Assembly (NCBI GenBank): GCA_964554805.1 | Contig: CAZKPX010000005.1 | Span: 15,935 to 79,934 of the forward strand | Length of the DNA stretch: 64,000 bases | Source: an uncultured Candidatus Saccharibacteria bacterium | GTDB lineage: Bacteria; Patescibacteriota; CAZHWT01 | Reading direction: 5' to 3' | Shown: one piece after another, positions 2,216 through 23,147 of the stretch | Position numbering within the stretch: position 1 is the first letter of the stretch | Layout: every line of letters begins with the position of its first letter | Notes under the pieces: generated by a model | Seen by the model: only the letters and a program-made list of their open reading frames with translations | Told to the model about the DNA's origin: nothing | The model's database searches: none | Program-made: the position numbers and the translations under genes

Positions 2216-2292
2216 GGCGCCTTCGTCTAGTGGCCCAGGACATCACCCTCTCATGGTGAAGATCAGGGGTTCGAATCCCCTAGGCGTCACCA
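2216..2292 (+). tRNA. tRNA-Glu (anticodon CUC)
   Basis: Hand-folded cloverleaf: acceptor GGCGCCT/AGGCGTC, D-stem GTCT/GGAC, anticodon stem TCACC/GGTGA, loop CTCTCAT (U33, A37), T-arm AGGGG-TTCGAAT-CCCCT, discriminator A, encoded CCA. It is very close to the enterobacterial tRNA-Glu sequence. Confidence 0.85.
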
Positions 2293-6833: not shown

Positions 6834-6844
6834 GAGGAAAACCA

Positions 6845-7132
6845 ATGAAACAAACGACCATGCTCTCTCAAATAACAACTCAAGAAGATGTGCTGGTAGC
6901 TGGAATCACGATGAAGCAATTAGTTATTTGGTTTATCGGAGGCTTGGGTATTGCTGCAATCTATATCTTGCTGCCGGAGCCTATGAAGCTAAACGCTTAT
7001 AAAGGAGTGCCTATGTTACTAATTGGTTCAACGACTGCTCTTTCAACGGTAAAACATAAAGGAAGTATGCTGCTAGATATTTGGCTACTAAAAGCACAAT
7101 ACGCACTTAGACCTAAAATCACCACGGAGTAA
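6845..7132 (+). CDS. small T4SS membrane protein (VirB3/PrgI-like?)
   Basis: 95 aa with one or two TM helices; AGGAGGA precedes the ATG. Its position between the VirB6-like and VirB4 genes is typical of VirB3. Confidence 0.35.
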   Translation: MKQTTMLSQITTQEDVLVAGITMKQLVIWFIGGLGIAAIYILLPEPMKLNAYKGVPMLLIGSTTALSTVKHKGSMLLDIWLLKAQYALRPKITTE

Positions 7133-7136
7133 ACCT

Positions 7137-7703
7137 ATGGCGCAAACTATTATTGATCAATTTGGTATATCAGATATTGCAGATAATTTGTTGTACTTGC
7201 ATGATGGTTCGATTTGTTTGGTACTGGAAACATCGTCGGTTAATTTGGACTTAAAGAGTGAGGCGGAGTCTGATGTGATTATTACGCATTACCAGCAACT
7301 CTTGCAGTCGCTAACCATCCCTATCCAGGTTATTGTCAAAAGTAGACGAGTGGATATGAGTGACTATGAACAGGCGATTCAAAAGAGAATTTCTGAATCC
7401 TTAGATGTGGCACACCAGGGGCAACTTGAAGAATACCAAGACTTTCTATCTCAATTAGTTGTCGGCCGCAATATGTTGACCAGACGTTTTTTTATCGTTC
7501 TTAGTCTTAAATCTGGGCGGGAGTTGAACAAGCAGCAGGTCATTGAACAACTTCAAACCCAAAAAGAGTTGTTATTAAGGCAGCTTCAGAAGTTAGAGAT
7601 TAAGGCATCTCAACTATCTAACTTGGAGTTAGCTAATGTGTTTTATGAATCATTCCAGCCAGACAAAGTAGCGAGTCAGCCGCTACGGGAGGTGAACGCA
7701 TGA
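7137..7703 (+). CDS. VirB4/TrbE-family ATPase, N-terminal domain, encoded as a separate ORF
   Basis: N-terminal pattern typical of VirB4 (..LHDGSICLVLE...). The stop overlaps the next start (ATGA at 7700-7703). Confidence 0.5.
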   Translation: MAQTIIDQFGISDIADNLLYLHDGSICLVLETSSVNLDLKSEAESDVIITHYQQLLQSLTIPIQVIVKSRRVDMSDYEQAIQKRISESLDVAHQGQLEEYQDFLSQLVVGRNMLTRRFFIVLSLKSGRELNKQQVIEQLQTQKELLLRQLQKLEIKASQLSNLELANVFYESFQPDKVASQPLREVNA

Positions 7704-9430
7704 TCCAAGACCTTCTTGAGCAAGTTAGTTTGAAAGTGAAAGCTAGTCCTCATAAAACTGTTCGTGCGCTGCCGACGCCTAAACTTACATCACCGCTCGT
7801 TAAAGCAATTCTGCCAGCTGGAATTGCCGAACAACCTCGACATATAGATACGGGTAGTAGAGTAAGTCGGACTCTGTACATCTCGCAATATCCGCATATT
7901 GCTCATACTGGCTGGCTTAATCCATTGCTGCAATTTAATGCAGATATGGACATCTCCTTTCATATTGCGCCCTCGGCTCCCGATCAAGCGATTCACCAAT
8001 TAACCCGCAAGATAACTGAAATGGAGTCTACCAGGCGAAGCATGGTCAGACGCGGTCAGATTGTCGGTAGCGAGTTAACTGATCCGCTGGAATCAGCTAT
8101 GAGTCTTAAGACGAATATGCTGCGGGGCAAAGAAAAGTTGTTTGGTATTGGATTGTATATCACGCTTCACGCGGACACTTTGGAAGAATTAGACAGAACA
8201 ACTAGGCTTCTTGAAGGCACTCTTGGGAGAGGCCTGTTTTATTCAAAGTCGGCAGATTTTAGGCAGTTGGCTGGGTTTAAAACAACGCTGCCTATGGCCA
8301 AGGATTTACTGCTCAATCCTCACGACTTTGATTCGCTTGGGGCTTCAACGACATTCCCCTTCGCATCGAGCGAAGTTATAGATCCCGATGGTGTACTGTA
8401 CGGAATTAATGAGGCTAGTAATTCACTGGTTATTATTGACCGCTTTGCCTTGCCGAATGCTAATGCCATTACCATTGCTCAATCAGGGGCTGGTAAAAGC
8501 TACACTTCAAAAGTAGAGATACTCAGACAGTTGCTCTTTGGTACCCAAGTCTTTGTTATCGATCCAGAAGATGAGTACCAAGAGTTGGCAAAGAATGTTG
8601 GGGGTCAGATGATTGTTATTACTCCAACATCAGGTCAAAGCATTAACCCTTTTGCGCTACCCCTTGAGGCAACAAAACAGGAGCGAGCGCAACACATTGA
8701 AGACTGTATAAGTCTTTTATCTGTCATGGCAGGCAGTATGAATGTCGAGGAGCGATCTCGGGTTGATGGAGTGCTATCTAGGCTATTTATGGGTGGTAAA
8801 CAGGTGGTGCAGCTTAGCCATGTTGTAAAAGCACTGGTCAAAGAACGTCAGCTGGAATCACTGGTAAGCAGATTGGAGCCATATAGTACTGGCTCACTTA
8901 AAGGATTGTTCACTAGCAATAAGTCGCTGAGTTTAGAGACTCCGCTTTCAGTCTTTAGCTTAAAACATGTACCCAATACCTTAAAGCCGGTAGTGACTAT
9001 GATGATCGCCACTGCTCTGCAGCGGCAGATTATGGGACAGAAGAAAAAGCGATTGCTGCTTATTGATGAGGGTTGGTTGCTGCTTGAACATGAGGATTCG
9101 GCTAAGTTTATTGCGGGTCTTACCAGACGAGCTAGAAAGTATTACCTAGGCGTCCATATGATTACCCAGCAAGTTCAAGATTTTTTGGATAATCCGCATG
9201 GTCGATCAATTGCCTCACAATCGGCGCTACGAATCCTACTTAAGCAAGACACTACAACAATTGATCAAGTAGCTAAGGCGTTTAGACTAAGCGGATATGA
9301 AAAAGAAACGATTTTAACTTCTGACAAAGGCGAAGCCTTGATTATTGCAGGATCAAAGCATGTCAAAGTCAAAATTGTAGCCTCAAGTAAAGAGCATCCG
9401 CTACTTACAACTGACCCTCAGGAATTATGA
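7700..9430 (+). CDS. VirB4/TrbE-family T4SS ATPase (ATPase domain)
   Basis: Walker A IAQSGAGKSYTSK and Walker B LLLIDEGW; 576 aa. Confidence 0.75.
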   Translation: MIQDLLEQVSLKVKASPHKTVRALPTPKLTSPLVKAILPAGIAEQPRHIDTGSRVSRTLYISQYPHIAHTGWLNPLLQFNADMDISFHIAPSAPDQAIHQLTRKITEMESTRRSMVRRGQIVGSELTDPLESAMSLKTNMLRGKEKLFGIGLYITLHADTLEELDRTTRLLEGTLGRGLFYSKSADFRQLAGFKTTLPMAKDLLLNPHDFDSLGASTTFPFASSEVIDPDGVLYGINEASNSLVIIDRFALPNANAITIAQSGAGKSYTSKVEILRQLLFGTQVFVIDPEDEYQELAKNVGGQMIVITPTSGQSINPFALPLEATKQERAQHIEDCISLLSVMAGSMNVEERSRVDGVLSRLFMGGKQVVQLSHVVKALVKERQLESLVSRLEPYSTGSLKGLFTSNKSLSLETPLSVFSLKHVPNTLKPVVTMMIATALQRQIMGQKKKRLLLIDEGWLLLEHEDSAKFIAGLTRRARKYYLGVHMITQQVQDFLDNPHGRSIASQSALRILLKQDTTTIDQVAKAFRLSGYEKETILTSDKGEALIIAGSKHVKVKIVASSKEHPLLTTDPQEL

Positions 9431-10050
9431 ACCCAGCACTATTCTTGCTATTTACCAATGATAAAGCCTTGCGCTGGTGCTTAATGGCAGCAGTCATGAT
9501 TGCTTTAGTGCCGATGATGATTGTGTTGACTATAACTCAGGTCGGTGCGCAAGCAATTTCCGATGTACTACTACCACATGGAGAGAATACAAACCCAACC
9601 TCGATTCCAACAATATACGGTTTGATTGAGCTAGAAAATCCAGCGATTTGGCCAGTCGGTGGAGTTATTACACAGGAGTTCGGGACGCCCAACTTTCCAT
9701 TTCAAGTTGCACATACTGGCATCGATATTGCTAATCCCAATGGAGCTGCAGGAGACCCTGTTCGGGCAATCTTGCCTGGCAAGATTGTGTTTGCTGGCGA
9801 AGACTTCATAAGTCGCAATCTAGAGGTGCATGTTGATCATGGCCAAGGCTTGGTTAGTGTGTATGCACACTTATCCAAGATAACAGCCATTAAAGGGCAA
9901 GAGGTGCTGCAAGGTCAAAAGGTGGGCGAGGAAGGAAGATCTGGTTGGGCAACAGGAGTGCATTTGCACTTAGAACTCAGATTGTTTCATATACCAGTGA
10001 ACCCCAGAGTTTTAATCGGACAAGGTTCGCCGCCATTGGAGCTACCATGA
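9427..10050 (+). CDS. M23/LytM-family peptidoglycan metallopeptidase, membrane-anchored
   Basis: N-terminal TM helix, then HTGIDIA...GLVSVYAHL...GVHLHLELR, which corresponds to the HxxxD and HxH zinc motifs of M23 peptidases. ATGA coupling on both sides. Confidence 0.7.
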   Translation: MNPALFLLFTNDKALRWCLMAAVMIALVPMMIVLTITQVGAQAISDVLLPHGENTNPTSIPTIYGLIELENPAIWPVGGVITQEFGTPNFPFQVAHTGIDIANPNGAAGDPVRAILPGKIVFAGEDFISRNLEVHVDHGQGLVSVYAHLSKITAIKGQEVLQGQKVGEEGRSGWATGVHLHLELRLFHIPVNPRVLIGQGSPPLELP

Positions 10051-12440
10051 TAAGGCCGATTACGACGCAAGAGCTATATAGTATGGTGGATTCTTTTGAA
10101 CAGATAGCTTGGGAAGGGTGGTTGGTAGGGGCAGTGATTGCACTTTTGCTTGCAGTATTATTGCTAGCAGTCTATCAGGGGTGGGTTGTGTATTTAAATA
10201 GAGATAAGTCGGTCATTGTATTCACTCCAGCTTTAATGGATACAAATAATTACGAGCGTATGGAAGAGTTCTTTAGCTTTATTGATGCGCTACTCAGGCC
10301 AAAGACTATACTTGGCAAGCTCCAGCCTTCACGGCAAATTACACTTGAAATCACAACGTCCTATGATACTGGTCTTCGCTACCAGCTATTCACCCCTCCT
10401 CATTTATCAGCGCCGATTGTTCAAGGAATAAAAAGCATATTCCCAGGCTCTAAGGTGCAGCCTGTGGCTAGCAGTGATCAAAATAGTATTGATGGAGTTG
10501 TGAGGCACTTTAAGTTAAAAAACCATCCTGCGCTACCACTGCGGTTCGTGACTGCAGAGCATGTAGCTGACCCCTCAAGCTTTGTCGCCAGTAGTCTGTC
10601 TGAGTTATCAGACAAAGAGCAGGCAGTGATTCAGGTTGTTTTATCCCCCACCAGAGGATTGAGCCATGTATTGCTGCACCGGGTAAACCCTGATTCATTT
10701 GGCAAGCTGGCGGGATTGGCGGAGCAAAAGTTGCGACAGCCAATATTCAAGACAACACTTCGGATCAAAACTTCCGAAGCAAGGCTGCACGCCGTCACTT
10801 CGGCGTTGTATGGCGTTAATCAACCCAAGGTGCAACAACTTGTCACGGCTCACTTATGGCCATTGCAGCGCTCACTTGTGGAATGGAGTCTTGCTAACTG
10901 TACGCAACTATTCTCACCTAGTCTGAAATTATCTGTTGGAGAACTAGCTAGTTTATTGCACCCTGCGACTGGCAGAGTTGCAAAGACTGAAGATGTATCA
11001 ACAAACAAGAGTAAGCTATTGCCGCTTCCTACAGAGCTAAAAACAAGAACTGCAGATAGCGGAGTAATTATTGGGTCTGCCATAGGCAGCTCAAGTAATT
11101 ACCCGATCATCGTCACCGATGATGATCGTTCACGGCATATGTATTTGATTGGTCAAACAGGTTCAGGCAAGTCTACAATTCTATTTCATATGGCAACAAA
11201 GGATATACTAGACGGCTACGGAGTAGCTGTCATTGATCCGCATGGTGATTTAATCGATGACATCGTCAGCGATTTAGTCGCAAACGTTGGCCGAGAAAGG
11301 GCGAATGAGGCAACTCAAAGAGTTGTGCTCATTGACCCCTCCGACCTGCACTTTCCAGTGGGGATTAACTTGCTGGAGATACCGCAAACATCTAGCGAAG
11401 AAGAGTTAGAGCAAGAAAGGGAACTGGTTTGCGAGGGTGTAATATCGGTGTTTAAGCGTGTCTTTGGGCAAGATGAAGATTCGAATGCGCACCGAATTGA
11501 ATATATGTTGCGCAATGTCATTCATACTGCGTTCCATGTTGAGAGTGCCACCATATTTACGTTATATGACTTGCTCAACGATACGAAGTATCGCAAGCAA
11601 GTGGTTAAAACTCTAACTGATCCAAACCTCATCAACTTTTGGAAGAATGAATTTCACAAAGCTGGCGACTGGCAGCAAGTGAAAATGGTGTCAGGTGTTA
11701 CCGCAAAGATTGGACGATTCCTCTTCTCTCCAACAGTTAAGAGAATTCTTGATCAGCCAAAATCAACCATTGATTTTGATGAGTGTTTAGCAACGAACAA
11801 AGTTCTTCTATGCAATCTTTCTGAAGGAAAGATTGGTGAGGATAATGCACACCTCATGGGTAGTGTAATTATTACTAAGATTCATCTTGCCGCCCTAAGG
11901 CGGTCAAGACTGAACAAGGATTCTAGAAGTCCCTATTATTTATACGTTGATGAGTTTCAGCATTTCGCTACAAACTATTTCACAAGGCTTCTATCAGGGG
12001 GTAGAAAGTTTGGCTTGCGCGTCATAATTGCGCAGCAATCGACCGCGCAGATTAAAGACAAAAATATGCTGCAGGTTATTCTAGCTAATACTGGGACTGT
12101 GGTGTCATTTAGAACAGCCAGCTCGTTTGACGCTGACATGGTATTGCCATTGTTTGAACCAATGGTGACGAGGGAAGATATTGTAAACCTGCCACGATAT
12201 AACTTCTTTATAAAGATGGGTGCTAGTGAGCCACTGCAAGCCTTCTCTGGGAGAACGAAGGCTATTGAAGTCACACAGGATGATAAGGCTATATTGCAGC
12301 TCCTAGAGTTATCTAGAGGGCAATATGCAGGTAAGCACCATCAGGCCACTAAGTCAACGACCATTCCAGCGAAGCCTAATGACAATAAGGATACAAAGCC
12401 AATGAAGAGCTTAGCGACTAAACTAAATGGCTCAACATAA
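10047..12440 (+). CDS. type IV coupling protein (VirD4/TraG/TcpA-like, FtsK-type ATPase)
   Basis: Two N-terminal TM helices; Walker A LIGQTGSGKST, VIDPHGDL and Walker B YLYVDEFQHF. The start was moved to ATG 10047, which overlaps the previous stop; the ORF-track start at 9945 overlaps the M23 gene. Confidence 0.7.
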   Translation: MIRPITTQELYSMVDSFEQIAWEGWLVGAVIALLLAVLLLAVYQGWVVYLNRDKSVIVFTPALMDTNNYERMEEFFSFIDALLRPKTILGKLQPSRQITLEITTSYDTGLRYQLFTPPHLSAPIVQGIKSIFPGSKVQPVASSDQNSIDGVVRHFKLKNHPALPLRFVTAEHVADPSSFVASSLSELSDKEQAVIQVVLSPTRGLSHVLLHRVNPDSFGKLAGLAEQKLRQPIFKTTLRIKTSEARLHAVTSALYGVNQPKVQQLVTAHLWPLQRSLVEWSLANCTQLFSPSLKLSVGELASLLHPATGRVAKTEDVSTNKSKLLPLPTELKTRTADSGVIIGSAIGSSSNYPIIVTDDDRSRHMYLIGQTGSGKSTILFHMATKDILDGYGVAVIDPHGDLIDDIVSDLVANVGRERANEATQRVVLIDPSDLHFPVGINLLEIPQTSSEEELEQERELVCEGVISVFKRVFGQDEDSNAHRIEYMLRNVIHTAFHVESATIFTLYDLLNDTKYRKQVVKTLTDPNLINFWKNEFHKAGDWQQVKMVSGVTAKIGRFLFSPTVKRILDQPKSTIDFDECLATNKVLLCNLSEGKIGEDNAHLMGSVIITKIHLAALRRSRLNKDSRSPYYLYVDEFQHFATNYFTRLLSGGRKFGLRVIIAQQSTAQIKDKNMLQVILANTGTVVSFRTASSFDADMVLPLFEPMVTREDIVNLPRYNFFIKMGASEPLQAFSGRTKAIEVTQDDKAILQLLELSRGQYAGKHHQATKSTTIPAKPNDNKDTKPMKSLATKLNGST

Positions 12441-12530
12441 TAGTAAAGATAGTCATAACGGTTATGACTATCTTTACTCATTCTACTTCAGATATACCAA
12501 TCATATTCCTACCCCTTTATATACATACTT

Positions 12531-13250
12531 ATGCAAAGCGAAATAATCCTACTCAAACAACTCTATATTTTTCGCTACCTTACACAAAAACAGTTCTGCA
12601 CAATTTTGGGGCTTAGTGGAAACGCTCATATAAGCCGCTCCCTACAATCATTAGAGTCTAAGGGATTAGTGGTTAATTATAAATCTAAGTCAATTATAGA
12701 GCCGACCGTTTATGGATTATCCGGTTCAGCAGCTAAGGTTATTAAATTAAACGCAAGCGAATTAGGCATAGATCTTCCGCTTGCCCGGAGTGTTACCAAT
12801 CTTCGTCTAACTAGTAGTGCATTCAAACAACATTGTATGGAAGTTGCTGATATTTTTTGCCAGCTACGAAGTAGCGCAAAAGATGAGGGTAAATCTTTCT
12901 CATGGCTAAGCAAGACTCAGCTCTATGGATTTGAGCCGCTACCGAAGCCGGCTCCTGATGCTTTGATGATGCTAGGTGAGAAGAATACAAAACAATACTT
13001 CTTCATTGAAGTATTGCAGGAGGGTATGTTGAGAAAACCGCTCTATATAAGATTGAGGCAGTACTATGACTTTTGGAAAGGTGGAGATTGGGAGGCAGAC
13101 ATAGAATCAGATTGTCCAAAGCTAATGATTATTACTCAGTCTGAGAGGCAGGTGTGGCAAGTTAAAAAACTGCTTGAGGTAATTGATGAAGATTTTGCTA
13201 AAGAATGTATAATGCAAACAATTATCGAAGGGGAATATCTACAAGATTAA
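12531..13250 (+). CDS. winged-helix protein, possibly replication-relaxation (Replic_Relax)-like relaxosome accessory protein
   Basis: N-terminal wHTH-like pattern LLKQLYIFRYLTQKQF...LQSLESKGLV. It sits directly after the coupling protein gene. Confidence 0.3.
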   Translation: MQSEIILLKQLYIFRYLTQKQFCTILGLSGNAHISRSLQSLESKGLVVNYKSKSIIEPTVYGLSGSAAKVIKLNASELGIDLPLARSVTNLRLTSSAFKQHCMEVADIFCQLRSSAKDEGKSFSWLSKTQLYGFEPLPKPAPDALMMLGEKNTKQYFFIEVLQEGMLRKPLYIRLRQYYDFWKGGDWEADIESDCPKLMIITQSERQVWQVKKLLEVIDEDFAKECIMQTIIEGEYLQD

Positions 13251-15578: not shown

Positions 15579-15700
15579 TCGTACTTAGAAAGTACGAGCC
15601 AGGGGTCCCCACTCATAGCAAGGTGGAGACTTGTACTACCTTGCTGTGCGTGGGGATGGCCAACAATGGTTATGTTGAGTGGAGGTTAAAACGGTTGGGT
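15579..15700 (-). promoter_or_regulatory. highly structured region upstream of the radC-like gene (nested inverted repeats; candidate ssDNA promoter/ssi or structured 5-prime UTR)
   Basis: Hairpin CTCGTACTT-agaa-AGTACGAG. A long-range 10-nt inverted repeat ACCTCCACTC(15597) / GAGTGGAGGT(15680). Further repeats GGTGGAGAC / CCACTCAT. Confidence 0.3.
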
Positions 15701-15799
15701 CTGACAGGTCGCTAGATGAAATATTCTGATAAGTGTTATGTCATTGGTTAAATGATATAATCATCAGAGATAAAATAATTATTCAACTTCAGAAGAATT

Positions 15800-18700
15800 A
15801 TGGCCAAAATAGACGACTCACTACTACAAGGAATCATTACTGGCAGGGTTGAGCCACACATATACTCTTTCGAAACAAATACACTACCTAATTATTTAAA
15901 GGTTGGCGACACCTATCGTCCAGTTGACGAGAGGTTGAATGAATGGAGAAAGTACTATAAGGATCTAACCGAAGTCTCAAGGCACAAGGCGATTGCCGCC
16001 GAAGGAGTGTTCTTTAGAGATTATTCTGTGCATAAGCACCTTCGCTCGAAAGGTAAGGTGCAGGCCAACTTTGACCCAGTAAGTAATTTTTACTCTGCTG
16101 AATTTTTCTCAGACACCAAAAAGACTGACGTGGAGCAGGCAGTCGAGCAAATCGTAAAAAGTTACCCCGAATCTAGTATTTACGATTACTACCACAATCT
16201 CAAAGATAGAATTGAATATCGGTTTACCAGAAATAAAGACTTTGCTCCACGAGATAATCAGCAGGAAGTTATTAATAGATTCAAAGAAGCCGTCAATGCA
16301 GGCCGTGCCAACTTGTTGATGTATGCCGTTATGCGGTTTGGCAAGTCTATTACTTCAATATGGGCAGCAAAACAAATCGATTCAAAGCTAACTGTAGTGG
16401 TTTCTGCCAAGGCTGATGTGCGACTTGAATGGAAGCAGACCGTTGAAAGCCATAAGGACTTTGCCGGGTATCGGTTCATGGATAGTGAAGATTTGCGGCA
16501 AAGCCCGGATATTGAGCAACTATATGGTCAAACCTTTAAAGCTGGATCTGAGACAGAAGAAGTGTGCACCAATATTGTGCTCTTTTTAACCTTGCAAGAT
16601 TTAGCTGGATCAACTGCCGCAATTAAGAAACGGCATGAATTCTTGCAAGAAGCTAATGTAGACTTACTGATTATTGATGAAACTCATTTTGGAGCTAGGG
16701 CACAAGTTCTAGGTAAAATTTTGGCAGGCACTGAAATCAGCGATGTTGATAAAGAAATGCTGAGTACGATGGAAGACCAAGATGACATCGGTAAGCCAAA
16801 AGAGCTAAAAGCAATAAATGCCAAGGTGAAATTACATTTATCAGGTACACCCTATCGAATCTTGATGGGTAGTGAGTTTGAACCTGAGGATATTATCGCC
16901 TTTGTGCAATTTAGTGATATCTATGAAGCAAAATTAAAATGGGCTACGGACAATCTAGAAACTGATGAATGGCATAATCCCTACTATGGCTTCCCCCAGA
17001 TGGTTCGATTCGCCTTTAATCCTAATGAGAGCTCGAGGAAGCTGCTTGATGGGATACCTGGCAGCAAGCCATCGGACTTACTTGCTCCCATTTCAACCAG
17101 CAGCAGTAATCCAAACTACGAGACTTTTCAACATGAGCAGGAGGTTCTAGAGCTTTTTGGAGCGCTAGATGGCTCACTAAGTGATACACAGCTACTTGGT
17201 GTTTTGGATAGCCCAATTATTAAGAATGGCAAACTAGCACGTCATATTGTAATCGTTTTACCCTTTAGGGCATCATGCGATGCGCTAGAAAAGCTGCTTG
17301 TCTCAAATAAGGATGAGTTTCGGAATATCGCCGAGTATAGGCTGTTTAATATCAGTGGGCACAACAAGGAGCTCTCGACTCCTGAGGAAGTTAAGGCTGC
17401 TATCTCCAACGCTGAGGCAGATGGAGATAAGACTATTACTCTGACTGTTAATAAGATGCTGACCGGCAGCACCGTACCTCAATGGGATACAATGATTTAC
17501 CTGAAAGGCACGGCAAGCCCTCAAGAGTACGATCAAGCCGTATTCCGCTTACAATCTCCCTGGGTTGAAGTGTATGAGGATGGTGAAGGTAATCGCATTG
17601 CCTATGATATGAAGCCTCAGACACTCCTCGTTGACCTTGACCCAACCCGCCTATTTTCCCTGCAGGAAGCCAAAGCCTTTACTTACGGTGCCAATGCAGG
17701 ACAGATTGGTAATGAACAAATTGAGTCTTTTATCGAGCGGGAACTAAAAATATCCCCAATTATTGCGGTCAATACTGAGAATAATAAGCTAGTTGAGATA
17801 AATGCCACTAATGTCATGGATCAAGTTCGAGATTACGCCGCTAGTCGGACTATTGTTGAAGATGTTGGCGATGTTGGTGTTGATTTAACCTTATTCGATA
17901 ATGAAGAGATTCTGGCTATGATCAGCTCTCTGTCAGAGATGGGTGGAAGGAATGGTCTGAACATTAGGCCTGCTGAAGATGAGGGGCAAGAGCTTGATAT
18001 CACGGAAGAGGTCGATGATCATGCTTCTGGCGATGATCCGACACTAGATCCTACTACTACGGGTACGCCTGCTCCTACTAGCGATTCTGAAACTGCGGCT
18101 AGCAATAGCAGTCTGGAGAAGAAATTCCGCTCATACTATGCCCAGATTCTTCTTTACGCTTTCCTAACTGACACCGAGGTGAAGAATTTATCTAGTGTAA
18201 TTGCAAGCATTGAGGCTAATGATGATAATCGTAGAATTGCCAAAAACCTTGGCCTGAGAGCCAGTGATTTACAGTTAATCAGAGACAATGTTAATTGGTC
18301 AGTACTGCGGAGTTTGGACTACAAAATTCAAAATACTGATTATAGGGCAATTGATGAGAGTATTTCTCCAGAAGAGCATATTGAGATTGCCATAAGTAAA
18401 TTTGGACGTCTGTCTGAATCAGAAATATTTACCCCCGCTATAATTGCCAATAAGATATTTGAAGGTTTTGATTCTGATTTTTGGGATAGTCTGAATTCAG
18501 AGATAGTTCTTGATATGGCAAGCAAGTCTGGTAGTTTTGCCCATGCATTCGTCCTGGTAGCAGAAGAAAATGGCGCGTCGAGAGTAGATTTGCGAGATAG
18601 GTTTTACTCAATACCCACTTCTCCAGCTGCATACGAATTTACTCTTAAAATGTACAAAGCAATTGGTTTAAACTCTCATAATATTGCTCAACACTTTAAT

Positions 18701-19870
18701 TCCTACGACCTGCTTAAACTATCTGCAGATGATGTCAATTTTCTTTTAACTCAAGATAAGAACTTTGATGATATAAAACTATCAGATCTTGAGAACCGGA
18801 ATCGTGATAGTATTAAGGGTAATAATGCAGGAGTAAATCAAGTGAGATTCAAAGCAATAGTTGGCAATCCTCCATACCAAGAGAATATCAAGAATCGAGG
18901 CGATCAACCGCCTATATACCACCACTTTCTAGAGACTGCCTACAATCTTTCAGATATTGTGTCAATGATCCACCCTGCAAGGTTCTTGTTTAATGCAGGG
19001 TTGACCCCTAGGGACTGGAATCAAAAGATGCTTAACGACAAGCATCTTAAGGTAGCATACTTTGAACAGAAATCAATGAATGTGTTCCCCAATACTGACA
19101 TTAAAGGTGGGATTGCTATTACACTTCGCGATACGAGTAAAGATTTTGGCGCAATTAAGGTATTCACTAGCTTGCCTGAGCTTAACTCTATATTGAATAA
19201 AGTCGAGCCTCAAACAATTGATACTCTAGATAAACATATAACTGGGCGCGGTGTTTATCGCCTTACAGAAGATGCACTGCGAGATCACCCGGAAATAGAA
19301 AGACTCCAATCTGTAGGCCACAAGACTGATGTTGGCTCTGGAGCTCTTAGAGTCTTAAAGGGTATTGTTCTATTTGAAAATAAACCGATTGATGAAAACG
19401 AGTATGTGCAAGTTATTGGGTTATTAGACAATCGTCGAGTTTACTATTGGATTGACCAAAGGTACTTGAGTCAGCCAAAGAACTTCAAGAAATATAAGAT
19501 TATTGTACCTAAGGCAAATGGGTCCGGGGCAATTGGTGAAATTCTAAGCACACCCCTAATCGGGGAGCCCCTAATCGGGTACACGGAGACTTTCATTGGA
19601 ATTGGTGAATTTAGTGCTGAAGTTGAAGCTAGGGCAGCGTTGAAGTATGTAAAATCAAAATTTGCACGAACGTTGCTGGGCGTACTAAAGATTACTCAAG
19701 ATAACCCGCGAGGCAAATGGGCAAAAGTTCCCTACCAAGACTTCACCAGCGCATCTGATATCGATTGGACTAGATCGGTAGCCGAGATCGATCGGCAGCT
19801 TTATGCTAAATATAACTTAAGCCCACAAGAAATTGAGTTTATTGAAGCTCGTGTTAAGGCTATGGAGTAG
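15800..19870 (+). CDS. SNF2/DEAD-like helicase fused to gamma-class N6-adenine DNA methyltransferase (Eco57I/N6_Mtase-like)
   Basis: Helicase motifs MRFGKS (I), LLIIDETHFGAR (II, DExH) and LSGTPYR (III). An acidic linker follows. MTase motif I is LDMASKSGSFAHAF and motif IV is IVGNPPYQE; about 250 aa follow the MTase core and may form a TRD. 1356 aa. Confidence 0.75.
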   Translation: MAKIDDSLLQGIITGRVEPHIYSFETNTLPNYLKVGDTYRPVDERLNEWRKYYKDLTEVSRHKAIAAEGVFFRDYSVHKHLRSKGKVQANFDPVSNFYSAEFFSDTKKTDVEQAVEQIVKSYPESSIYDYYHNLKDRIEYRFTRNKDFAPRDNQQEVINRFKEAVNAGRANLLMYAVMRFGKSITSIWAAKQIDSKLTVVVSAKADVRLEWKQTVESHKDFAGYRFMDSEDLRQSPDIEQLYGQTFKAGSETEEVCTNIVLFLTLQDLAGSTAAIKKRHEFLQEANVDLLIIDETHFGARAQVLGKILAGTEISDVDKEMLSTMEDQDDIGKPKELKAINAKVKLHLSGTPYRILMGSEFEPEDIIAFVQFSDIYEAKLKWATDNLETDEWHNPYYGFPQMVRFAFNPNESSRKLLDGIPGSKPSDLLAPISTSSSNPNYETFQHEQEVLELFGALDGSLSDTQLLGVLDSPIIKNGKLARHIVIVLPFRASCDALEKLLVSNKDEFRNIAEYRLFNISGHNKELSTPEEVKAAISNAEADGDKTITLTVNKMLTGSTVPQWDTMIYLKGTASPQEYDQAVFRLQSPWVEVYEDGEGNRIAYDMKPQTLLVDLDPTRLFSLQEAKAFTYGANAGQIGNEQIESFIERELKISPIIAVNTENNKLVEINATNVMDQVRDYAASRTIVEDVGDVGVDLTLFDNEEILAMISSLSEMGGRNGLNIRPAEDEGQELDITEEVDDHASGDDPTLDPTTTGTPAPTSDSETAASNSSLEKKFRSYYAQILLYAFLTDTEVKNLSSVIASIEANDDNRRIAKNLGLRASDLQLIRDNVNWSVLRSLDYKIQNTDYRAIDESISPEEHIEIAISKFGRLSESEIFTPAIIANKIFEGFDSDFWDSLNSEIVLDMASKSGSFAHAFVLVAEENGASRVDLRDRFYSIPTSPAAYEFTLKMYKAIGLNSHNIAQHFNSYDLLKLSADDVNFLLTQDKNFDDIKLSDLENRNRDSIKGNNAGVNQVRFKAIVGNPPYQENIKNRGDQPPIYHHFLETAYNLSDIVSMIHPARFLFNAGLTPRDWNQKMLNDKHLKVAYFEQKSMNVFPNTDIKGGIAITLRDTSKDFGAIKVFTSLPELNSILNKVEPQTIDTLDKHITGRGVYRLTEDALRDHPEIERLQSVGHKTDVGSGALRVLKGIVLFENKPIDENEYVQVIGLLDNRRVYYWIDQRYLSQPKNFKKYKIIVPKANGSGAIGEILSTPLIGEPLIGYTETFIGIGEFSAEVEARAALKYVKSKFARTLLGVLKITQDNPRGKWAKVPYQDFTSASDIDWTRSVAEIDRQLYAKYNLSPQEIEFIEARVKAME

Positions 19871-19875
19871 CGGTT

Positions 19876-21534
19876 ATGGCTACGGTAAATGGTGTTGATA
19901 TTCTTGAAAACAAGCTCAGGCGTAAAGGTTGCCTACTAGATGCGCTTCTTCTCGACCAATCCACTAAAAGAAACTTGATTTGGGGTACCGACTCGTATAT
20001 GCATTTAGGAGAAAAATATTTACCTGAAGCACAGATTCTTCCAGGACTAGTGACTGGTAAGAATGGGCTTTTAATCCAACCTAGGGCAGCAAAGAGTATT
20101 GTTGAGCAAAAACAGCGAACAAAGGATAAGGCAGAGGTTTTTACTCCTTTACATGTCGTTGACCAGATTAATGCACTCACAGATACCATTGAAGTAGATA
20201 GCGAAAATTGGCAGGACTATGTTAAGGAATTGAGGCTTGAGATTGCCTGTGGTGAAGCGCCATTCATTGTTAGTCGGTATGACCCCACCTTGCCGGCTGG
20301 GGGTACGGTTAAAATTAATCAAAGAGTCGGCTTCTTAGATAAAAAACTAATGGCAGTGTCTAGATTCTGCAATAAGCGAGCCGAATGGCTACATTGGGCT
20401 ATGGAGGCTTTTAAATCTAGCTATGGATTTGAATGGCAAGGAGACAACGTATTAATTGCGCGAGAAAACTTATTATATACACTCCTCGATTATTACTATG
20501 AAAAATTTGGCCATAGGCTTCGACTGTCTGCTCAACAAGAGTTTGCGGAAGTGATCAGCTGGAACATCTTTCAGATGGATGGATTGAAATTTGTTACGCC
20601 TATGAGCTGTCAAACTGAGATGACTGCTGAGCAAGGAGCCATCACATTATTCGATGATGAGCCCGACGCTGTTCGAGAGGCTAAATGCGAGGGGTGCAGA
20701 TTGGACATTCAAGAAAAACATAATGGGGTGTATGCTAAAGTAATGGATTGGGAGCAAGAGAAATCTAGGCGATTTATTGATCTGCTTTCTTATAAGAATC
20801 TGCTCCTATCTCCAGTCAAAACAAATGCACTGGGGCGACTAAAAGAGAGCAGCATGATTGCAAGGAATGCAAGTGAAGAAAAAATTTATAAGTTACTTCT
20901 AGAAATTGGCTACACTGCAGATATGATTCAAGAACCTGACAAGGTTAATGACCTGAATCCAGAAAAAGCTGTAGACTATGTATTGCCTGAAATCGCCATA
21001 GAGGTTAAAGAAATATACAACCCAGATATAATGTCTGACGCCGAGAGGATGAAGAGCGATTTTGACCGAGATGGCTACTCAGTCTTTGTGGCTCCAAATA
21101 TCAGTCAGAGCATTAAAACTCATCTCGACTCTACCGTTAAGAAGCTAAAGAATTTTCCAGATGTTCAATCATTGCTAATCATAGACATATCCCAGTTGGT
21201 ATATCCTCCGGATATTGAAGCGGTAGTTCTAGGATCGGAAGCTATAGAAGGTTATTTGTCCGATGCGGATGGCGAGCGCAAGTTTGTTGAGACCGATCGT
21301 GGCTGGCTGGGTAAGCTTTTTCAAGAAAAGCAATATACTAGTATTGGAGCAATAGCCTTCTTGTCAAATATTAAATTCTCGGTGTTCCACAATCTTAGTG
21401 CCAAGAAGGAAAGAAAATTATCCATCCATCGCTTATGCGATATTGCAAACATAAAGTCACTCTCAGTAGAGCAATTTGCTTTCTACAATATCAATCGGGG
21501 CCCGAGCGCTATAAGGAAAATAGAAGTTAGCTAA
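19876..21534 (+). CDS. hypothetical protein, partner of the helicase-MTase; possible PD-(D/E)xK-like nuclease segment
   Basis: Starts 6 nt after the stop of the MTase fusion. The segment AVDYVLPEIAIEVKEIY looks like a D...ExK (or Vsr/DUF559-like) core. No other motif recognised. Confidence 0.35.
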   Translation: MATVNGVDILENKLRRKGCLLDALLLDQSTKRNLIWGTDSYMHLGEKYLPEAQILPGLVTGKNGLLIQPRAAKSIVEQKQRTKDKAEVFTPLHVVDQINALTDTIEVDSENWQDYVKELRLEIACGEAPFIVSRYDPTLPAGGTVKINQRVGFLDKKLMAVSRFCNKRAEWLHWAMEAFKSSYGFEWQGDNVLIARENLLYTLLDYYYEKFGHRLRLSAQQEFAEVISWNIFQMDGLKFVTPMSCQTEMTAEQGAITLFDDEPDAVREAKCEGCRLDIQEKHNGVYAKVMDWEQEKSRRFIDLLSYKNLLLSPVKTNALGRLKESSMIARNASEEKIYKLLLEIGYTADMIQEPDKVNDLNPEKAVDYVLPEIAIEVKEIYNPDIMSDAERMKSDFDRDGYSVFVAPNISQSIKTHLDSTVKKLKNFPDVQSLLIIDISQLVYPPDIEAVVLGSEAIEGYLSDADGERKFVETDRGWLGKLFQEKQYTSIGAIAFLSNIKFSVFHNLSAKKERKLSIHRLCDIANIKSLSVEQFAFYNINRGPSAIRKIEVS

Positions 21535-21555: not shown

Positions 21556-22146
21556 ATGGAAGATCTTGAAAAGTATATTAATGTTAAAGACCTAGTTACT
21601 AACTTAGTGTTTTGGGGGATTGTAGGTGTTACAGGTATACTTGCTACTCTACATAGAAAGCTTATCTGGGATAAAGTTAAACCTTTTATAAATATAAAGG
21701 TATCTTTTAGAAAAAAGCCTGAACTCCCAAAAGTAATTTTTACCAAAGATAGTATAAAAATTCTGTTTGTTGACGACCAAGAGATGCCAATTGTTGAGAA
21801 TTTAGATTCAGCAGGTTGGGATGTAAGATTAATAAAAGATATTACAGATCTAAAATCAGATGAAATTATTAATAGGCAAATAATCTTCGTTGACTATGAT
21901 GGTGTAGGCAGAAAGTTTTCAGAAGAGCACCAAGGAGTGGAGCTCATAAAAATACTGAAAGATGAATATAAGGAAACTAAATTCGTTGTGCTTTACACTT
22001 CTATGGCAAACCTACCCACAGATACAACTTTTACAACATCCTTTGATTTAGCAGATGATAAAATGAGAAAAAATGCAAATACTTCTGAGTTTATCGATAA
22101 GATCAATAAGGCTATTAAAAAGCTCAACGGTAATGAAGAAGAATGA
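21556..22146 (+). CDS. membrane-anchored receiver-domain-only protein (CheY-like REC with N-terminal TM helix)
   Basis: TM helix VFWGIVGVTGILATL. Then KILFVDDQ (acidic pocket), IIFVDYDG (candidate phospho-Asp) and VVLYTS (conserved Thr/Ser). No output domain. Confidence 0.45.
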   Translation: MEDLEKYINVKDLVTNLVFWGIVGVTGILATLHRKLIWDKVKPFINIKVSFRKKPELPKVIFTKDSIKILFVDDQEMPIVENLDSAGWDVRLIKDITDLKSDEIINRQIIFVDYDGVGRKFSEEHQGVELIKILKDEYKETKFVVLYTSMANLPTDTTFTTSFDLADDKMRKNANTSEFIDKINKAIKKLNGNEEE

Positions 22147-23147
22147 TTTATTTTGAAATAGTAGACAAAAATGGATATGTCATAGCCGGAAACGTGGATG
22201 AGTTTAGTCAAGTATCTAGCTTTAGAGAGAATAAGATTCAGTCCACGCATGTTAATGGAGTTGGCGTAAAATCTACATTTGTTAAAAAAGAAAACTATAG
22301 CTTATGGCTAATATTAGAAAATGAAAAGGATTATCTAAGAAGTTCGAGAAGGTTAAAACTACTTACAGATACCTATTTAATAGTAGCTGAAAGCATGTGG
22401 CAGCAACAAAAGAAATTACTGGATATCCATGCTCATTCATTAAGAACGATATCTGGACGTATGCAGCAAAAGCTGGAAGGCTTCTCAATGCCTGAGCGAT
22501 ACCAAGCCGCAAACTATAAAGACTCTGTAGCAAAACTGATTAATATTGTCAAAAGCCAGCCAAATAAAGCAGGAGAGCTTATATTCTATCAGAGTAAACG
22601 TATCGTAGACTTGCAAATGCATTTATTATCTATTGATATAATTCAAGAAAGTCCATTTTTACAAATTGACTTCCAGCTTGTAGATTTAAGCAAGAGTTTG
22701 TTAAATTTTTATACCCCATTCTCGGATAGATTTCATGAGGTTGATGTAATTGTTAATTTCGACTCAAGTCTTGAGACAAGAGTTAAGGTTGACAGAAAAA
22801 TGTTTAATCTTGCAATACATAATATTATTGACAATGCAGCAAAATACTCAATGCCTGGTTCGAAAATTTACATTACCCTAGACAGGGAAAGTAAGAGACT
22901 GCTCTTTAAAATGCAGAGTCTTCGTATAGACAAGGATGAAAGAAGCTTAGTATTTGATGATGGTTATAGAGGACATCACACAAATGCTAAATTCATGGGA
23001 TCTGGTCATGGGATGTATATGACAAAGAGGGCGCTATCTAAAATGGATATGACTATTTCAGTGGAGGTTAATTACGAGAATTGCACACCTTATGAAAATG
23101 ACCAATACACTGAAAATACAATAGTTATTTCTGGGCTAAAACAGTAA
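22143..23147 (+). CDS. soluble histidine kinase (HisKA + HATPase_c) with a short N-terminal domain
   Basis: H-box LDIHAHSLRTISGRM, N-box IHNIIDNAAKYS, G1 VFDDGYRGH, G2 GSGHGMYMTKRAL. No TM helix. The start overlaps the upstream stop (ATGA). Confidence 0.65.
   Translation: MIYFEIVDKNGYVIAGNVDEFSQVSSFRENKIQSTHVNGVGVKSTFVKKENYSLWLILENEKDYLRSSRRLKLLTDTYLIVAESMWQQQKKLLDIHAHSLRTISGRMQQKLEGFSMPERYQAANYKDSVAKLINIVKSQPNKAGELIFYQSKRIVDLQMHLLSIDIIQESPFLQIDFQLVDLSKSLLNFYTPFSDRFHEVDVIVNFDSSLETRVKVDRKMFNLAIHNIIDNAAKYSMPGSKIYITLDRESKRLLFKMQSLRIDKDERSLVFDDGYRGHHTNAKFMGSGHGMYMTKRALSKMDMTISVEVNYENCTPYENDQYTENTIVISGLKQ

What the first reader, a model, noticed from the sequence alone, without database searches (positions are those of the whole stretch)
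15800..21534. 1356-aa SNF2-helicase/gamma N6-adenine methyltransferase fusion with a 552-aa partner carrying a possible PD-(D/E)xK core: anti-restriction gene or single-polypeptide restriction-like system?
The domain order is helicase first (motifs I, II DExH, III LSGTP), then an Eco57I-like MTase (LDMASKSGSF ... NPPY) with about 250 aa of C-terminal extension. The helicase has no obvious nuclease domain in front, which sets it apart from classical Type ISP enzymes. The immediately downstream 552-aa protein of unknown function carries a D...EVK segment (AVDYVLPEIAIEVK). The pair could be an orphan helicase-methylase that protects transferring DNA, which would fit a leading-region position. It could equally be a split Type ISP/Type IIG-like restriction system or a new defence module.
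Basis: partly seen in the sequence, partly recalled or inferred. Interest (0 to 1): 0.65.

Follow-up and report, generated by a model that had tools for sequence, protein, structure and literature searches.

The report
Two-gene helicase-methylase restriction system, extra nuclease
This gene pair is a member of a widespread but apparently uncharacterised two-protein, helicase-driven restriction-modification system carried on a conjugative element, and in this one genome its small subunit has gained an extra, rare nuclease-like domain.

Summary
Its statement that there is no nuclease domain in front of the helicase is wrong: aa 20-118 are a T5orf172 (GIY-YIG-related) domain whose candidate catalytic residues are invariant in 83 homologues.

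The 1356-aa protein matches a PADLOC "Type IIG RE-MTase" profile end to end. It reads nuclease-like domain, SF2 helicase, gamma N6-adenine methylase (NPPY), then a target-recognition region. That region is swapped between close homologues (identity falls from 56-70% to 10-34% while the helicase stays at 62-69%), as in sequence-specific R-M enzymes.

The fusion is never solitary. In 77 of 80 genomes a homologue of the partner's first 305 aa lies beside it, and the other 3 contigs are cut at that side. This ~306-aa subunit resembles a methylase around motifs X and I but has no NPPY.

The partner's C-terminal ~230 aa occur in no other locus. They belong to a rare uncatalogued family whose only invariant residues include the flagged D...EVK. 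The model is confident and PD-(D/E)xK-like, but no fold match is significant.

Flanking genes elsewhere are defence genes. Verdict: a Type ISP-like, two-component R-M system, not an anti-restriction gene. It is a new variant of a known kind, of moderate interest.

The parts
15800..19870 (+). Large subunit gene (1356 aa): T5orf172 nuclease-like domain, SF2 helicase, gamma N6-adenine methyltransferase, target-recognition region
   Evidence: ORF. Full-length match to PADLOC REase_MTase_IIG PDLC03626, E 4e-281, aa 8-1355 against profile 11-1359/1359. More than 4600 full-length homologues.
15857..16153 (+). T5orf172 (GIY-YIG-related) domain, aa 20-118; putative nuclease
   Evidence: Pfam PF10544 at 26.5-31.5 bits, cut-off 20. 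G15, Y22, F24, K34, G36, D37, R40, R45, E48, R73, D74, H78 and E101 are each identical in 83 of 83 homologues.
16241..17689 (+). SF2 helicase/translocase, aa ~148-630 (Pfam ResIII covers aa 148-352; the second RecA-like half is inferred from conserved motifs)
   Evidence: Pfam ResIII, E 5e-8. Conserved in the 83-sequence alignment: G181 and K182 in 82 of 83, residue 183 S or T in 82 of 83, D293, E294 and H296 in 83 of 83, residue 295 T or S in 83 of 83, S348-P351 in 83 of 83, Q579 and Q585 in 83 of 83, R583 in 82 of 83. This is the most conserved part of the protein.
17960..18139 (+). Variable acidic/low-complexity linker, aa 721-780
   Evidence: Lowest conservation outside the recognition region: 0.29-0.36 and 23-38% identity in close homologues.
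18401..19087 (+). Gamma-class N6-adenine methyltransferase core, aa ~868-1096 (motif X SEIFTP, motif I LDMASKSGSF, motif IV NPPY)
   Evidence: Pfam Eco57I PF07669, E 3e-16, aa 979-1096. NPPY is present in 83 of 83 and motif I is conserved.
19130..19489 (+). Variable core of the target-recognition domain, aa 1111-1230
   Evidence: Identity to close homologues falls stepwise from 56-70% (P0122-P0133) to 10-34% (P0134-P0169) while the helicase stays at 62-69%. There is a dip in family conservation here.
19490..19867 (+). Conserved C-terminal part of the methylase/recognition module, aa 1231-1356
   Evidence: Conservation 0.59-0.71. aa 1014-1355 match the PADLOC MTase_II profile PDLC03375. In L. 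plantarum this part, starting at NPPY, is a separate polypeptide.
19876..21534 (+). Small subunit gene, here 552 aa; 5 nt after the large gene
   Evidence: The same fused ORF appears in assemblies of two sequencing runs.
19876..20790 (+). Conserved small-subunit domain, aa 1-305: methylase-like around motifs X and I (AEVFTP, LEIACGEAPF), no NPPY
   Evidence: PADLOC MTase_II PDLC03390, E 5e-87. More than 5600 homologues of ~306 aa. There are 37 invariant columns across 24 diverse members. hhalign places aa 66-138 on aa 854-921 of the large protein, probability 68%, E 4.7e-5. It lies next to the large gene in 77 of 80 genomes.
20791..20853 (+). Non-homologous linker, aa 306-326; it ends at a retained ATG (20854) preceded by a purine-rich Shine-Dalgarno-like stretch
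   Evidence: M327 aligns with the start Met of the free-standing homologues.
20854..21531 (+). Add-on domain found only in this locus, aa 327-552: PD-(D/E)xK-like putative nuclease followed by a beta-rich subdomain
   Evidence: Only 11 distant free-standing homologues among 1.84 billion representatives. Absent from all 84 other loci. AlphaFold model with pLDDT 86.8 and pTM 0.84.
20974..21009 (+). Candidate catalytic motif D367-x8-E376-V-K378
   Evidence: D367, E376 and K378 are the only invariant columns in the 12-sequence alignment. In the 16-sequence alignment the invariant columns are D355, D367, E376, K378 and G453. In the model, D367 begins one strand of a hairpin and E376/K378 lie on the next strand.

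Best explanation
The two genes encode a two-component, ATP-dependent restriction-modification system, carried as cargo on an integrated conjugative element. The large subunit has the Type ISP domain order: nuclease-like domain, SF2 translocase, gamma N6-adenine methylase, target-recognition domain. Its nuclease-like domain is T5orf172 (GIY-YIG-related) rather than Mrr. Proposed mechanism, which is inferred and not shown: the recognition domain reads a short asymmetric site. On host DNA the NPPY methylase marks the adenine. On unmodified incoming DNA the helicase motor translocates from the site and DNA is cut by the N-terminal nuclease-like domain. The ~306-aa small subunit is an obligate partner. 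It resembles a methylase around motifs X and I but lacks the catalytic NPPY, so it most likely acts as a non-catalytic structural or regulatory subunit of the complex. In this genome alone, the small subunit has absorbed a formerly separate downstream gene for a rare PD-(D/E)xK-like protein. That tethers a second putative nuclease to the complex, possibly so that each DNA strand has its own catalytic site. What is shown: the domain content, the conservation of motifs, the gene linkage, the swapping of the recognition region, the defence-island context and the uniqueness of the fusion. What is inferred: every enzymatic activity, the assembly of a complex and the mode of cleavage.
For: There is a full-length match to the PADLOC REase_MTase_IIG profile. 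The Pfam hits are T5orf172, ResIII and Eco57I. In 83 homologues the T5orf172 candidate catalytic residues and NPPY are invariant, and the helicase motif residues are conserved in 82-83 of 83, counting S/T exchanges. aa 1111-1230 show stepwise loss of identity (56-70% down to 10-34%) against a constant helicase (62-69%), which means recognition-domain swapping. The partner's N-domain homologue lies beside the large gene in 77 of 80 species genomes, and the 3 exceptions have less than 120 bp of flank on the relevant side. The same linkage holds in plasmids of Enterococcus, Lactiplantibacillus and Bifidobacterium. The genes downstream of the pair elsewhere are SIR2, Dsr2, LmuA, AbiH/J, Cap4 nuclease, OLD, dGTPase, AriA and other R-M genes. 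Here the candidate system PDC-M43A/B follows. For the C-domain, D367, E376 and K378 are invariant in a rare family. Its model is confident and has a helix-strand-hairpin-helix-strand core. It gives sub-threshold hits to DpnII-MboI REase and DUF4420 PD-(D/E)XK. The junction retains an in-frame ATG with an upstream purine-rich stretch.
Against: No activity has been measured, and I found no paper that characterises any member. The functionally analogous split cluster dnmA-yeeB-yeeC of B. subtilis gave no phage protection (PMC9973331). T5orf172 domains have also been proposed to be DNA-binding rather than catalytic (same paper). Fold searches with the C-domain model gave no significant match: best E 0.05 in PDB and 0.01 in BFVD. 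The fold of the small subunit's N-domain is unknown, because the model was poor at pLDDT 49. The profiles hit no solved structure, Type ISP enzymes included.
Confidence: 0.62

Rival explanations
1. It is a methylation-dependent exclusion system that does not cleave DNA, in the manner of BREX or DISARM. The T5orf172 domain only binds DNA, the helicase and methylase discriminate self from non-self, and replication of unmodified DNA is blocked without cutting. The added PD-(D/E)xK-like domain would then be a secondary effector specific to this genome.
For: T5orf172 has been described as a possible DNA-binding domain (PMC9973331). BREX methylases were once listed as Type IIG in REBASE (PMC12707154), so the PADLOC name does not prove cleavage. 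No solved nuclease matches the N-domain.
Against: The residues that correspond by spacing to the GIY-YIG Tyr, Arg and Glu are invariant in 83 of 83 homologues. No BREX or DISARM profile was hit in PADLOC. The conserved core has only two genes.
Confidence: 0.13
2. It is an orphan or anti-restriction helicase-methylase that protects the conjugative element's DNA on entry into a new host.
For: The pair lies on a conjugative element, downstream of the relaxase and next to radC. A strongly structured intergenic element lies just upstream.
Against: The family is mostly chromosomal, spans many phyla and sits among defence genes. It always carries the partner. It has a swapped recognition domain typical of restriction specificity and a conserved nuclease-like domain. 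Phage records hold only distant, partial relatives.
Confidence: 0.06
3. It is a decayed R-M relic whose methylase now acts as an orphan epigenetic regulator, as proposed for B. subtilis DnmA.
For: There is a precedent in dnmA-yeeB-yeeC (PMC9973331).
Against: All catalytic motifs of all domains are intact, both ORFs are uninterrupted, and the locus sits on a recently mobile element.
Confidence: 0.08
4. The 552-aa fusion is not functionally a fusion. Either the C-domain is translated separately from the retained ATG at 20854, or the missing stop codon is a population-level or sequencing variant. In that case the locus is really three genes.
For: M327 aligns with the start Met of the free-standing homologues, and a purine-rich stretch lies 7-14 nt upstream.
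Against: The identical continuous ORF occurs in assemblies of two runs and in the NCBI record. There is no stop codon in frame.
Confidence: 0.1

Closest known systems
Type ISP restriction-modification enzymes (LlaGI, LlaBIII)
   Same: The domain order is the same: N-terminal nuclease, SF2 translocase, gamma N6-adenine methylase, C-terminal recognition domain (definition from PMC3874165). The size is similar, and these enzymes are also carried on plasmids or mobile elements.
   Different: The nuclease-like domain is T5orf172 (GIY-YIG-related), not Mrr/PD-(D/E)xK. An obligate second gene is conserved, whereas Type ISP enzymes are self-contained. No sequence similarity to any solved structure was detected, even with a family profile.
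PADLOC/REBASE-derived 'Type IIG RE-MTase' family PDLC03626 with 'MTase_II' family PDLC03390
   Same: Both proteins match these profiles essentially end to end, so automated tools would call this locus an R-M system.
   Different: Classical Type IIG enzymes (Eco57I, BpuSI, MmeI) have no helicase and cut at a fixed distance without ATP. The 'MTase_II' partner lacks the catalytic NPPY. The 247-aa extension of the partner is not part of either profile.
dnmA-yeeB-yeeC cluster of Bacillus subtilis and its Vibrio crassostreae homologues
   Same: It has the same three activities as separate genes: an N6-adenine methylase, an SF2 helicase and a T5orf172 protein. It is also found in defence islands (PMC9973331).
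   Different: The methylase there is MmeI-like, and the domains are on three polypeptides. That paper mentions no ~306-aa methylase-like subunit. Homology to the window proteins was not tested.
Type III restriction-modification (Mod2Res, e.g. EcoP15I)
   Same: It is a helicase-nuclease working with a methylase that marks one strand of an asymmetric site. It contains a methylase-fold subunit that does not itself methylate (one Mod protomer recognises the site while the other methylates; abstract of PMC4490356 seen). That is a possible analogy for the NPPY-less small subunit.
   Different: The gene and domain organisation differ. In Type III the nuclease is C-terminal and PD-(D/E)xK, and both Mod protomers are identical.

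Membership tests
Type ISP R-M enzymes | Single self-contained polypeptide | tested here: not met
   A second gene (homologue of the partner's N-domain) is adjacent in 77 of 80 genomes. The other 3 contigs are truncated on that side.
Type ISP R-M enzymes | N-terminal Mrr-like PD-(D/Q/E)xK endonuclease domain | tested here: not met
   The N-terminus is Pfam T5orf172, and there is no Mrr hit.
Type ISP R-M enzymes | SF2 translocase, then gamma N6-adenine methylase, then C-terminal recognition domain | tested here: met
   ResIII and Eco57I hits, conserved motifs and a swapped region at aa 1111-1230.
Type ISP R-M enzymes | Detectable sequence homology to LlaGI/LlaBIII | tested here: not met
   phmmer and a family-profile hmmsearch against all PDB chain sequences gave no hit at E up to 1.
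Type ISP R-M enzymes | ATP-dependent translocation; cleavage requires two head-to-head sites | not testable with these tools
   This needs biochemistry.
Type IIG R-M enzymes (as modelled by PADLOC PDLC03626) | Full-length match to the family profile | tested here: met
   E 4e-281, aa 8-1355 against profile 11-1359/1359.
Type IIG R-M enzymes (classical definition) | Endonuclease and methylase in one chain; cleavage at a fixed distance without ATP | tested here: inconclusive
   The methylase motifs are present and there is a nuclease-like domain. However, helicase motifs that are nearly invariant argue for ATP-dependent action. The activity itself is not testable here.
GIY-YIG superfamily / T5orf172 (PF10544) | Score above the Pfam curated cut-off | tested here: met
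   26.5 and 31.5 bits against a cut-off of 20.
GIY-YIG superfamily / T5orf172 (PF10544) | Conserved Tyr, Arg and Glu catalytic-type residues | tested here: met
   Y22, R40/R45 and E101 are identical in 83 of 83 homologues. Their assignment to catalytic roles rests on spacing only and is an inference.
PD-(D/E)xK nucleases (partner aa 327-552) | D...(D/E)xK motif conserved in the family | tested here: met
   D367, E376 and K378 are invariant across 12 and across 16 distant homologues.
PD-(D/E)xK nucleases (partner aa 327-552) | Alpha-beta-beta-beta-alpha-beta core, with D at the start of one strand and ExK on the next | tested here: inconclusive
   The secondary-structure order of the confident model fits. 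No coordinates could be superposed.
PD-(D/E)xK nucleases (partner aa 327-552) | Significant profile or fold match to a known member | tested here: not met
Gamma-class N6-adenine methyltransferases (partner aa 1-305) | Catalytic motif IV (D/N/S)PP(Y/F/W) | tested here: not met
   The motif is absent from the window protein and from all aligned family members.
Gamma-class N6-adenine methyltransferases (partner aa 1-305) | Motif X and motif I region | tested here: inconclusive
   hhalign to motifs X and I of the large subunit gives probability 68% and E 4.7e-5. The loop reads CGEAPF, not GxGxF. There is no usable structure model.
Anti-restriction / polyvalent helicase-methylases of mobile elements | Stand-alone protective methylase without restriction-type specificity turnover; carried by phages or plasmids | tested here: not met
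   The partner is obligate, the recognition region is swapped, the family is mainly chromosomal in defence islands, and phages hold only distant, partial homologues.

The most novel reading that the evidence does not exclude
The large-plus-small gene pair defines a distinct and so far uncharacterised class of ATP-dependent R-M system. It combines a GIY-YIG-type nuclease-helicase-methylase with an obligate catalytically dead methylase-like subunit, and relatives were found at 494 places in a collection of 185,579 species genomes. The window's natural fusion of a PD-(D/E)xK-like nuclease to that subunit shows that the small subunit sits at the cleavage site. The fusion gives the complex two nucleases of different folds, so that one complex could make a double-strand break without colliding with a second enzyme.
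Probability: 0.3. Interest if true: 0.6.

Novelty: new variant of a known kind. Interest (0 to 1): 0.45.

Why it matters
The family deserves attention in its own right for four reasons. It is common: relatives of the large protein were found at 494 places in a collection of one genome per species. It has the Type ISP layout but a different nuclease-like fold. It depends on a strongly conserved methylase-like subunit of unknown role. No member seems to have been studied biochemically or structurally. The fusion found only in this window is a natural clue that the small subunit works next to DNA cleavage, and it brings a rare nuclease-like family with no Pfam, PADLOC or PHROGs entry into a functional context. 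Practically, such systems are barriers to genetic manipulation of Saccharibacteria-like and gut Bacteroidota organisms, and they are candidate sources of new specificities.

Tried and rejected
1. AlphaFold of the whole partner with a 32-sequence alignment in which the homologues are 55-61% identical to the query gave pLDDT 49. A Foldseek search with that model was meaningless, with best E 2.8. The fold of the N-domain therefore remains open.
2. Sequence and profile searches of PDB chains with the large family, the small family and the C-domain family found nothing meaningful.
4. megablast of the locus against plasmids found no match.
5. NCBIfam has no model for either protein.
6. Promoter and terminator scans did not differ from shuffled controls.
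7. Rfam found only the tRNA.
8. Six literature searches and five papers consulted turned up no characterised member. The Prevotella intermedia 'Type IIG plus SNF2 helicase' locus (PMC5608340) has a different arrangement.
9. I looked for a conserved third gene downstream of the pair and rejected the idea, because the downstream genes are heterogeneous.
10. The gene context of the free-standing C-domain homologues was uninformative: the contigs are short, with an HTH gene and an unknown gene upstream and an Mrr-type gene nearby.


Full report
OBSERVATION. All quoted motifs are present in the large protein: GKS at aa 181-183, DETH at 293-296, LSGTP at 347-351, LDMASKSGSF at 904-913 and NPPY at 1023-1026. 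AVDYVLPEIAIEVK lies at aa 365-378 of the partner. Two descriptive statements do not hold. First, the large protein does have a nuclease-type domain in front of the helicase. Pfam T5orf172 (PF10544) covers aa 20-118 above its curated cut-off. This family is treated as GIY-YIG-related in PMC9973331 and, to my knowledge, in Pfam's clan assignment. Second, the label 'SNF2' is not established, because the only helicase family hit is ResIII, a generic SF2 family.

THE LARGE SUBUNIT. It matches the PADLOC profile REase_MTase_IIG PDLC03626 end to end (E 4e-281, aa 8-1355 against 11-1359 of 1359). It has more than 4600 homologues in the protein collection, and all 120 listed cover at least 99% of the query, from Saccharibacteria, Bacteroidota, Bacillota, Actinomycetota, Spirochaetota, Campylobacterota and others. 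In one genome per species (185,579 species), 494 stretches encode a relative. I aligned the window protein with 82 full-length homologues taken from the fetched loci. In that alignment the T5orf172 residues G15, Y22, F24, K34, G36, D37, R40, R45, E48, R73, D74, H78 and E101 are identical in all 83 sequences, as is NPPY. The helicase motif residues (GK[S/T], DE[T/S]H, SGTP, Q579/R583/Q585) are conserved in 82 or 83 of the 83. The spacing Y22 ... R45 ... E101 fits the Tyr, Arg and Glu of GIY-YIG nucleases, but this assignment is an inference. Conservation along the chain is highest in the helicase. It is lowest in an acidic linker (aa 721-780), in aa 991-1020 just before NPPY, and in aa 1111-1230.

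A SWAPPED RECOGNITION REGION. I compared the window protein with its 48 closest homologues, region by region. The helicase is 62-69% identical throughout and the T5orf172 region is 54-65% identical. aa 1111-1230 are 56-70% identical in twelve homologues and then drop abruptly to 10-34% in the remaining thirty-six. A discontinuity confined to the C-terminal module is what exchange of target-recognition domains produces in Type I, Type IIG and Type ISP enzymes. This is my strongest argument that the protein is a sequence-specific R-M enzyme under diversifying selection for specificity, rather than a general protective methylase.

The first 305 aa of the 552-aa protein belong to a very large family of proteins. 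The 119 listed homologues are 303-326 aa long and 56-63% identical to the query (more than 5600 hits in all). The family has no Pfam or NCBIfam model. PADLOC models it as MTase_II PDLC03390 (E 5e-87), and NCBI records variously name it 'restriction endonuclease subunit M' or 'restriction endonuclease'. Of 80 genome loci fetched through the large protein, 77 carry a homologue of this domain beside the large gene, usually 10-60 bp away. The three without it are contigs with less than 120 bp of sequence on the side where it normally lies. It lies upstream in most phyla and immediately downstream in the Saccharibacteria-like clade to which the window belongs. The same linkage holds for distant (23-29% identical) helicase-methylase variants on plasmids of Enterococcus, Lactiplantibacillus and Bifidobacterium, including forms in which the methylase is split just before NPPY.

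WHAT THE CONSERVED SMALL SUBUNIT IS. Its invariant motifs are AEVFTP, LE[I]xCGEAPF, RxGxxDxK, GD...AR and N..QMDG. A profile-profile comparison places aa 66-138 on aa 854-921 of the large subunit, that is on methylase motifs X and I, with modest support (probability 68%, E 4.7e-5). No (D/N/S)PP(Y/F/W) motif exists anywhere in the family. By the canonical criterion it is not an active N6-adenine methylase. I read it as a methylase-derived, non-catalytic subunit. An analogy is the non-methylating Mod protomer of Type III enzymes (abstract of PMC4490356, seen). This is inference. Its fold could not be determined, because the model had pLDDT 49 and there was no PDB profile hit.

THE D...EVK DOMAIN IS AN ADD-ON FOUND ONLY HERE. 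Across 84 other loci the small subunit is 282-386 aa long, and only the window's version reaches 552 aa. An exhaustive HMMER scan of 1.84 billion cluster representatives with aa 306-552 found the protein itself and only 11 distant relatives (22-36% identity), all free-standing proteins; ten are 199-224 aa long and one is 113 aa. In a 16-sequence alignment the invariant columns are D355, D367, E376, K378 and G453. An AlphaFold model built on that alignment is confident (pLDDT 86.8, pTM 0.84). It shows a helix, a short strand and then a beta-hairpin that carries D367 at the start of its first strand and E376/K378 on its second. Helices and a further strand follow, which is the canonical PD-(D/E)xK order, and a beta-rich subdomain completes the model. 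Individual members give sub-threshold Pfam hits to DpnII-MboI restriction endonuclease (23.4 bits, cut-off 27) and to DUF4420, a 'putative PD-(D/E)XK' family. Against this, Foldseek found no significant match in PDB or BFVD. The best E-values were 0.05 and 0.01, although the weak lists are rich in PD-(D/E)xK nucleases. The more sensitive libraries were unavailable. The family is absent from PADLOC and has no meaningful PHROGs match. I put the probability that this is a PD-(D/E)xK nuclease at about 0.6.

HOW THE FUSION AROSE. The conserved N-domain ends near aa 305 and a 21-residue stretch with no homologue follows. M327 (ATG at 20854) aligns with the initiator Met of the free-standing relatives (MIAR-NASEE against MIKR-NQSED). 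It is preceded by aaagagag 7-14 nt upstream. The simplest reading is that the stop codon of the small-subunit gene was lost, so that translation reads through a former intergenic spacer into a downstream gene. The continuous ORF occurs in assemblies of two sequencing runs. Separate translation of the C-domain from the retained ATG cannot be excluded.

CONTEXT. A tRNA-Glu (2216-2292) abuts a large serine recombinase (2280-3800, minus strand). Type IV secretion genes and a Replic_Relax relaxase follow (5655-13250), then an HNH protein and RadC. Next comes the pair, then homologues of the PADLOC candidate system PDC-M43A/B (21556-23147). From about 28 kb the genes are housekeeping genes. The pair is therefore cargo of an integrated conjugative element in what is probably a Saccharibacteria-like host; the closest homologues and DUF5671 point that way. 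In 60 other genomes the gene immediately downstream of the pair is heterogeneous and is very often a defence gene: SIR2, Dsr2, Lamassu LmuA, AbiH, AbiJ, Cap4 nuclease, OLD, dGTPase, PARIS AriA or another R-M enzyme. No third gene is conserved.

MECHANISM (inferred). The model is by analogy with Type ISP enzymes as defined in PMC3874165. The recognition domain binds an asymmetric site and the NPPY methylase marks host DNA. On unmodified sites the SF2 motor translocates and the N-terminal T5orf172 domain cuts. The small subunit is an integral, probably non-catalytic, part of the complex. In this genome it also delivers a second nuclease of a different fold, which could supply a catalytic site for the second strand. 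Confidence in the overall R-M reading is about 0.6. Confidence that the large subunit is a sequence-specific m6A methylase is higher, about 0.85.

RIVALS. (a) A non-cleaving BREX- or DISARM-like system (0.13): T5orf172 may only bind DNA, and 'Type IIG' labels have been wrong before (PMC12707154). (b) An anti-restriction or orphan methylase (0.06): contradicted by the obligate partner, the swapped recognition region and the defence-island distribution. (c) A decayed relic like B. subtilis dnmA-yeeB-yeeC (0.08; PMC9973331): all motifs are intact here. (d) The fusion is functionally two proteins (0.10).

COMPARISON AND NOVELTY. The system works like a Type ISP enzyme, but it fails three defining features of that family: it is not self-contained, it has no Mrr nuclease, and it has no detectable homology to solved structures. 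It is a member of the PADLOC 'Type IIG' and 'MTase_II' profile families, so as a predicted R-M locus it is already catalogued. The classical Type IIG definition (no ATP, fixed-distance cutting) is unlikely to apply, given the nearly invariant helicase motifs. I found no experimental work on any member. Absence from the searchable library is not proof of absence. The fusion of the nuclease-like domain to the small subunit has no second example in the data searched. I classify the finding as a new variant of a known kind, with moderate interest (0.45).

Noticed in passing
window 15579-15720: The intergenic region between radC and the large gene forms strong hairpins: an 8-bp stem and an imperfect stem of about 25 bp. 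The fold z-score is about -4.5 on both strands, and 0 of 200 shuffles fold as well. There is no Rfam match. It could be an oriT or single-strand-initiation structure of the conjugative element, or a small RNA.
   Followed up: partly
window 21556-23147: Two genes directly downstream (196 aa; 334 aa with an HATPase_c domain) match the PADLOC candidate defence system PDC-M43A/B. They are co-directional, start 21 nt after the partner, and no terminator-like site lies at the junctions. Their GC content is much lower (0.32-0.34 against 0.42), which suggests separate acquisition. No paper mentions PDC-M43.
   Followed up: partly
window 2216-3800: A tRNA-Glu (CTC) overlaps the 3' end of a 506-aa large serine recombinase gene on the opposite strand. 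This is probably the integration site and left end of the conjugative element. The right end was not mapped; by composition and gene content it lies somewhere between 26 and 33 kb.
   Followed up: no
L006/L007 5249-5860 and 10980-12854 (Saccharibacteria RAAC3_TM7_1 and a relative): In the homologous locus of a complete Saccharibacteria genome, a free-standing 203-aa T5orf172/MUG113 protein lies just upstream of the large gene. A 624-aa OLD-family (AAA_15 and TOPRIM) nuclease gene starts 3 nt after the small-subunit gene. This is another case of an extra nuclease joined to the pair.
   Followed up: no
L002 906-5191 (L. plantarum plasmid) and L003 11216-15708 (B. longum plasmid): In these distant variants the methylase is split between two polypeptides just before NPPY. 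Motif X (FTP) stays on the helicase chain and NPPY is at residue 9 of the next protein. In B. longum the gene order is permuted and an IS256 separates the small subunit from the rest.
   Followed up: partly
phage records MK250019.1 / MK250029.1 (Prevotella Lak megaphages): Lak megaphages encode a 27%-identical relative that covers aa 19-1033 of the large protein, from the T5orf172 domain to the start of the methylase catalytic region. Whether they also carry the small subunit was not checked.
   Followed up: no
L001 9894-14132 (E. faecium plasmid pK195-6b-A): The 1412-aa partner of the small-subunit homologue has an unrelated N-terminus of about 280 aa in place of T5orf172; the alignment starts at aa 281. 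It is followed by a DUF262 protein, with an McrC-family gene further downstream. The nuclease module of this system family may be exchangeable.
   Followed up: no
L090 2331-4454: A free-standing homologue of the partner's C-domain abuts an unknown 193-aa gene directly upstream (the 193-aa gene ends at 2912 and the homologue starts at 2913), behind an HTH regulator. An Mrr_cat restriction-type gene lies on the opposite strand nearby.
   Followed up: no
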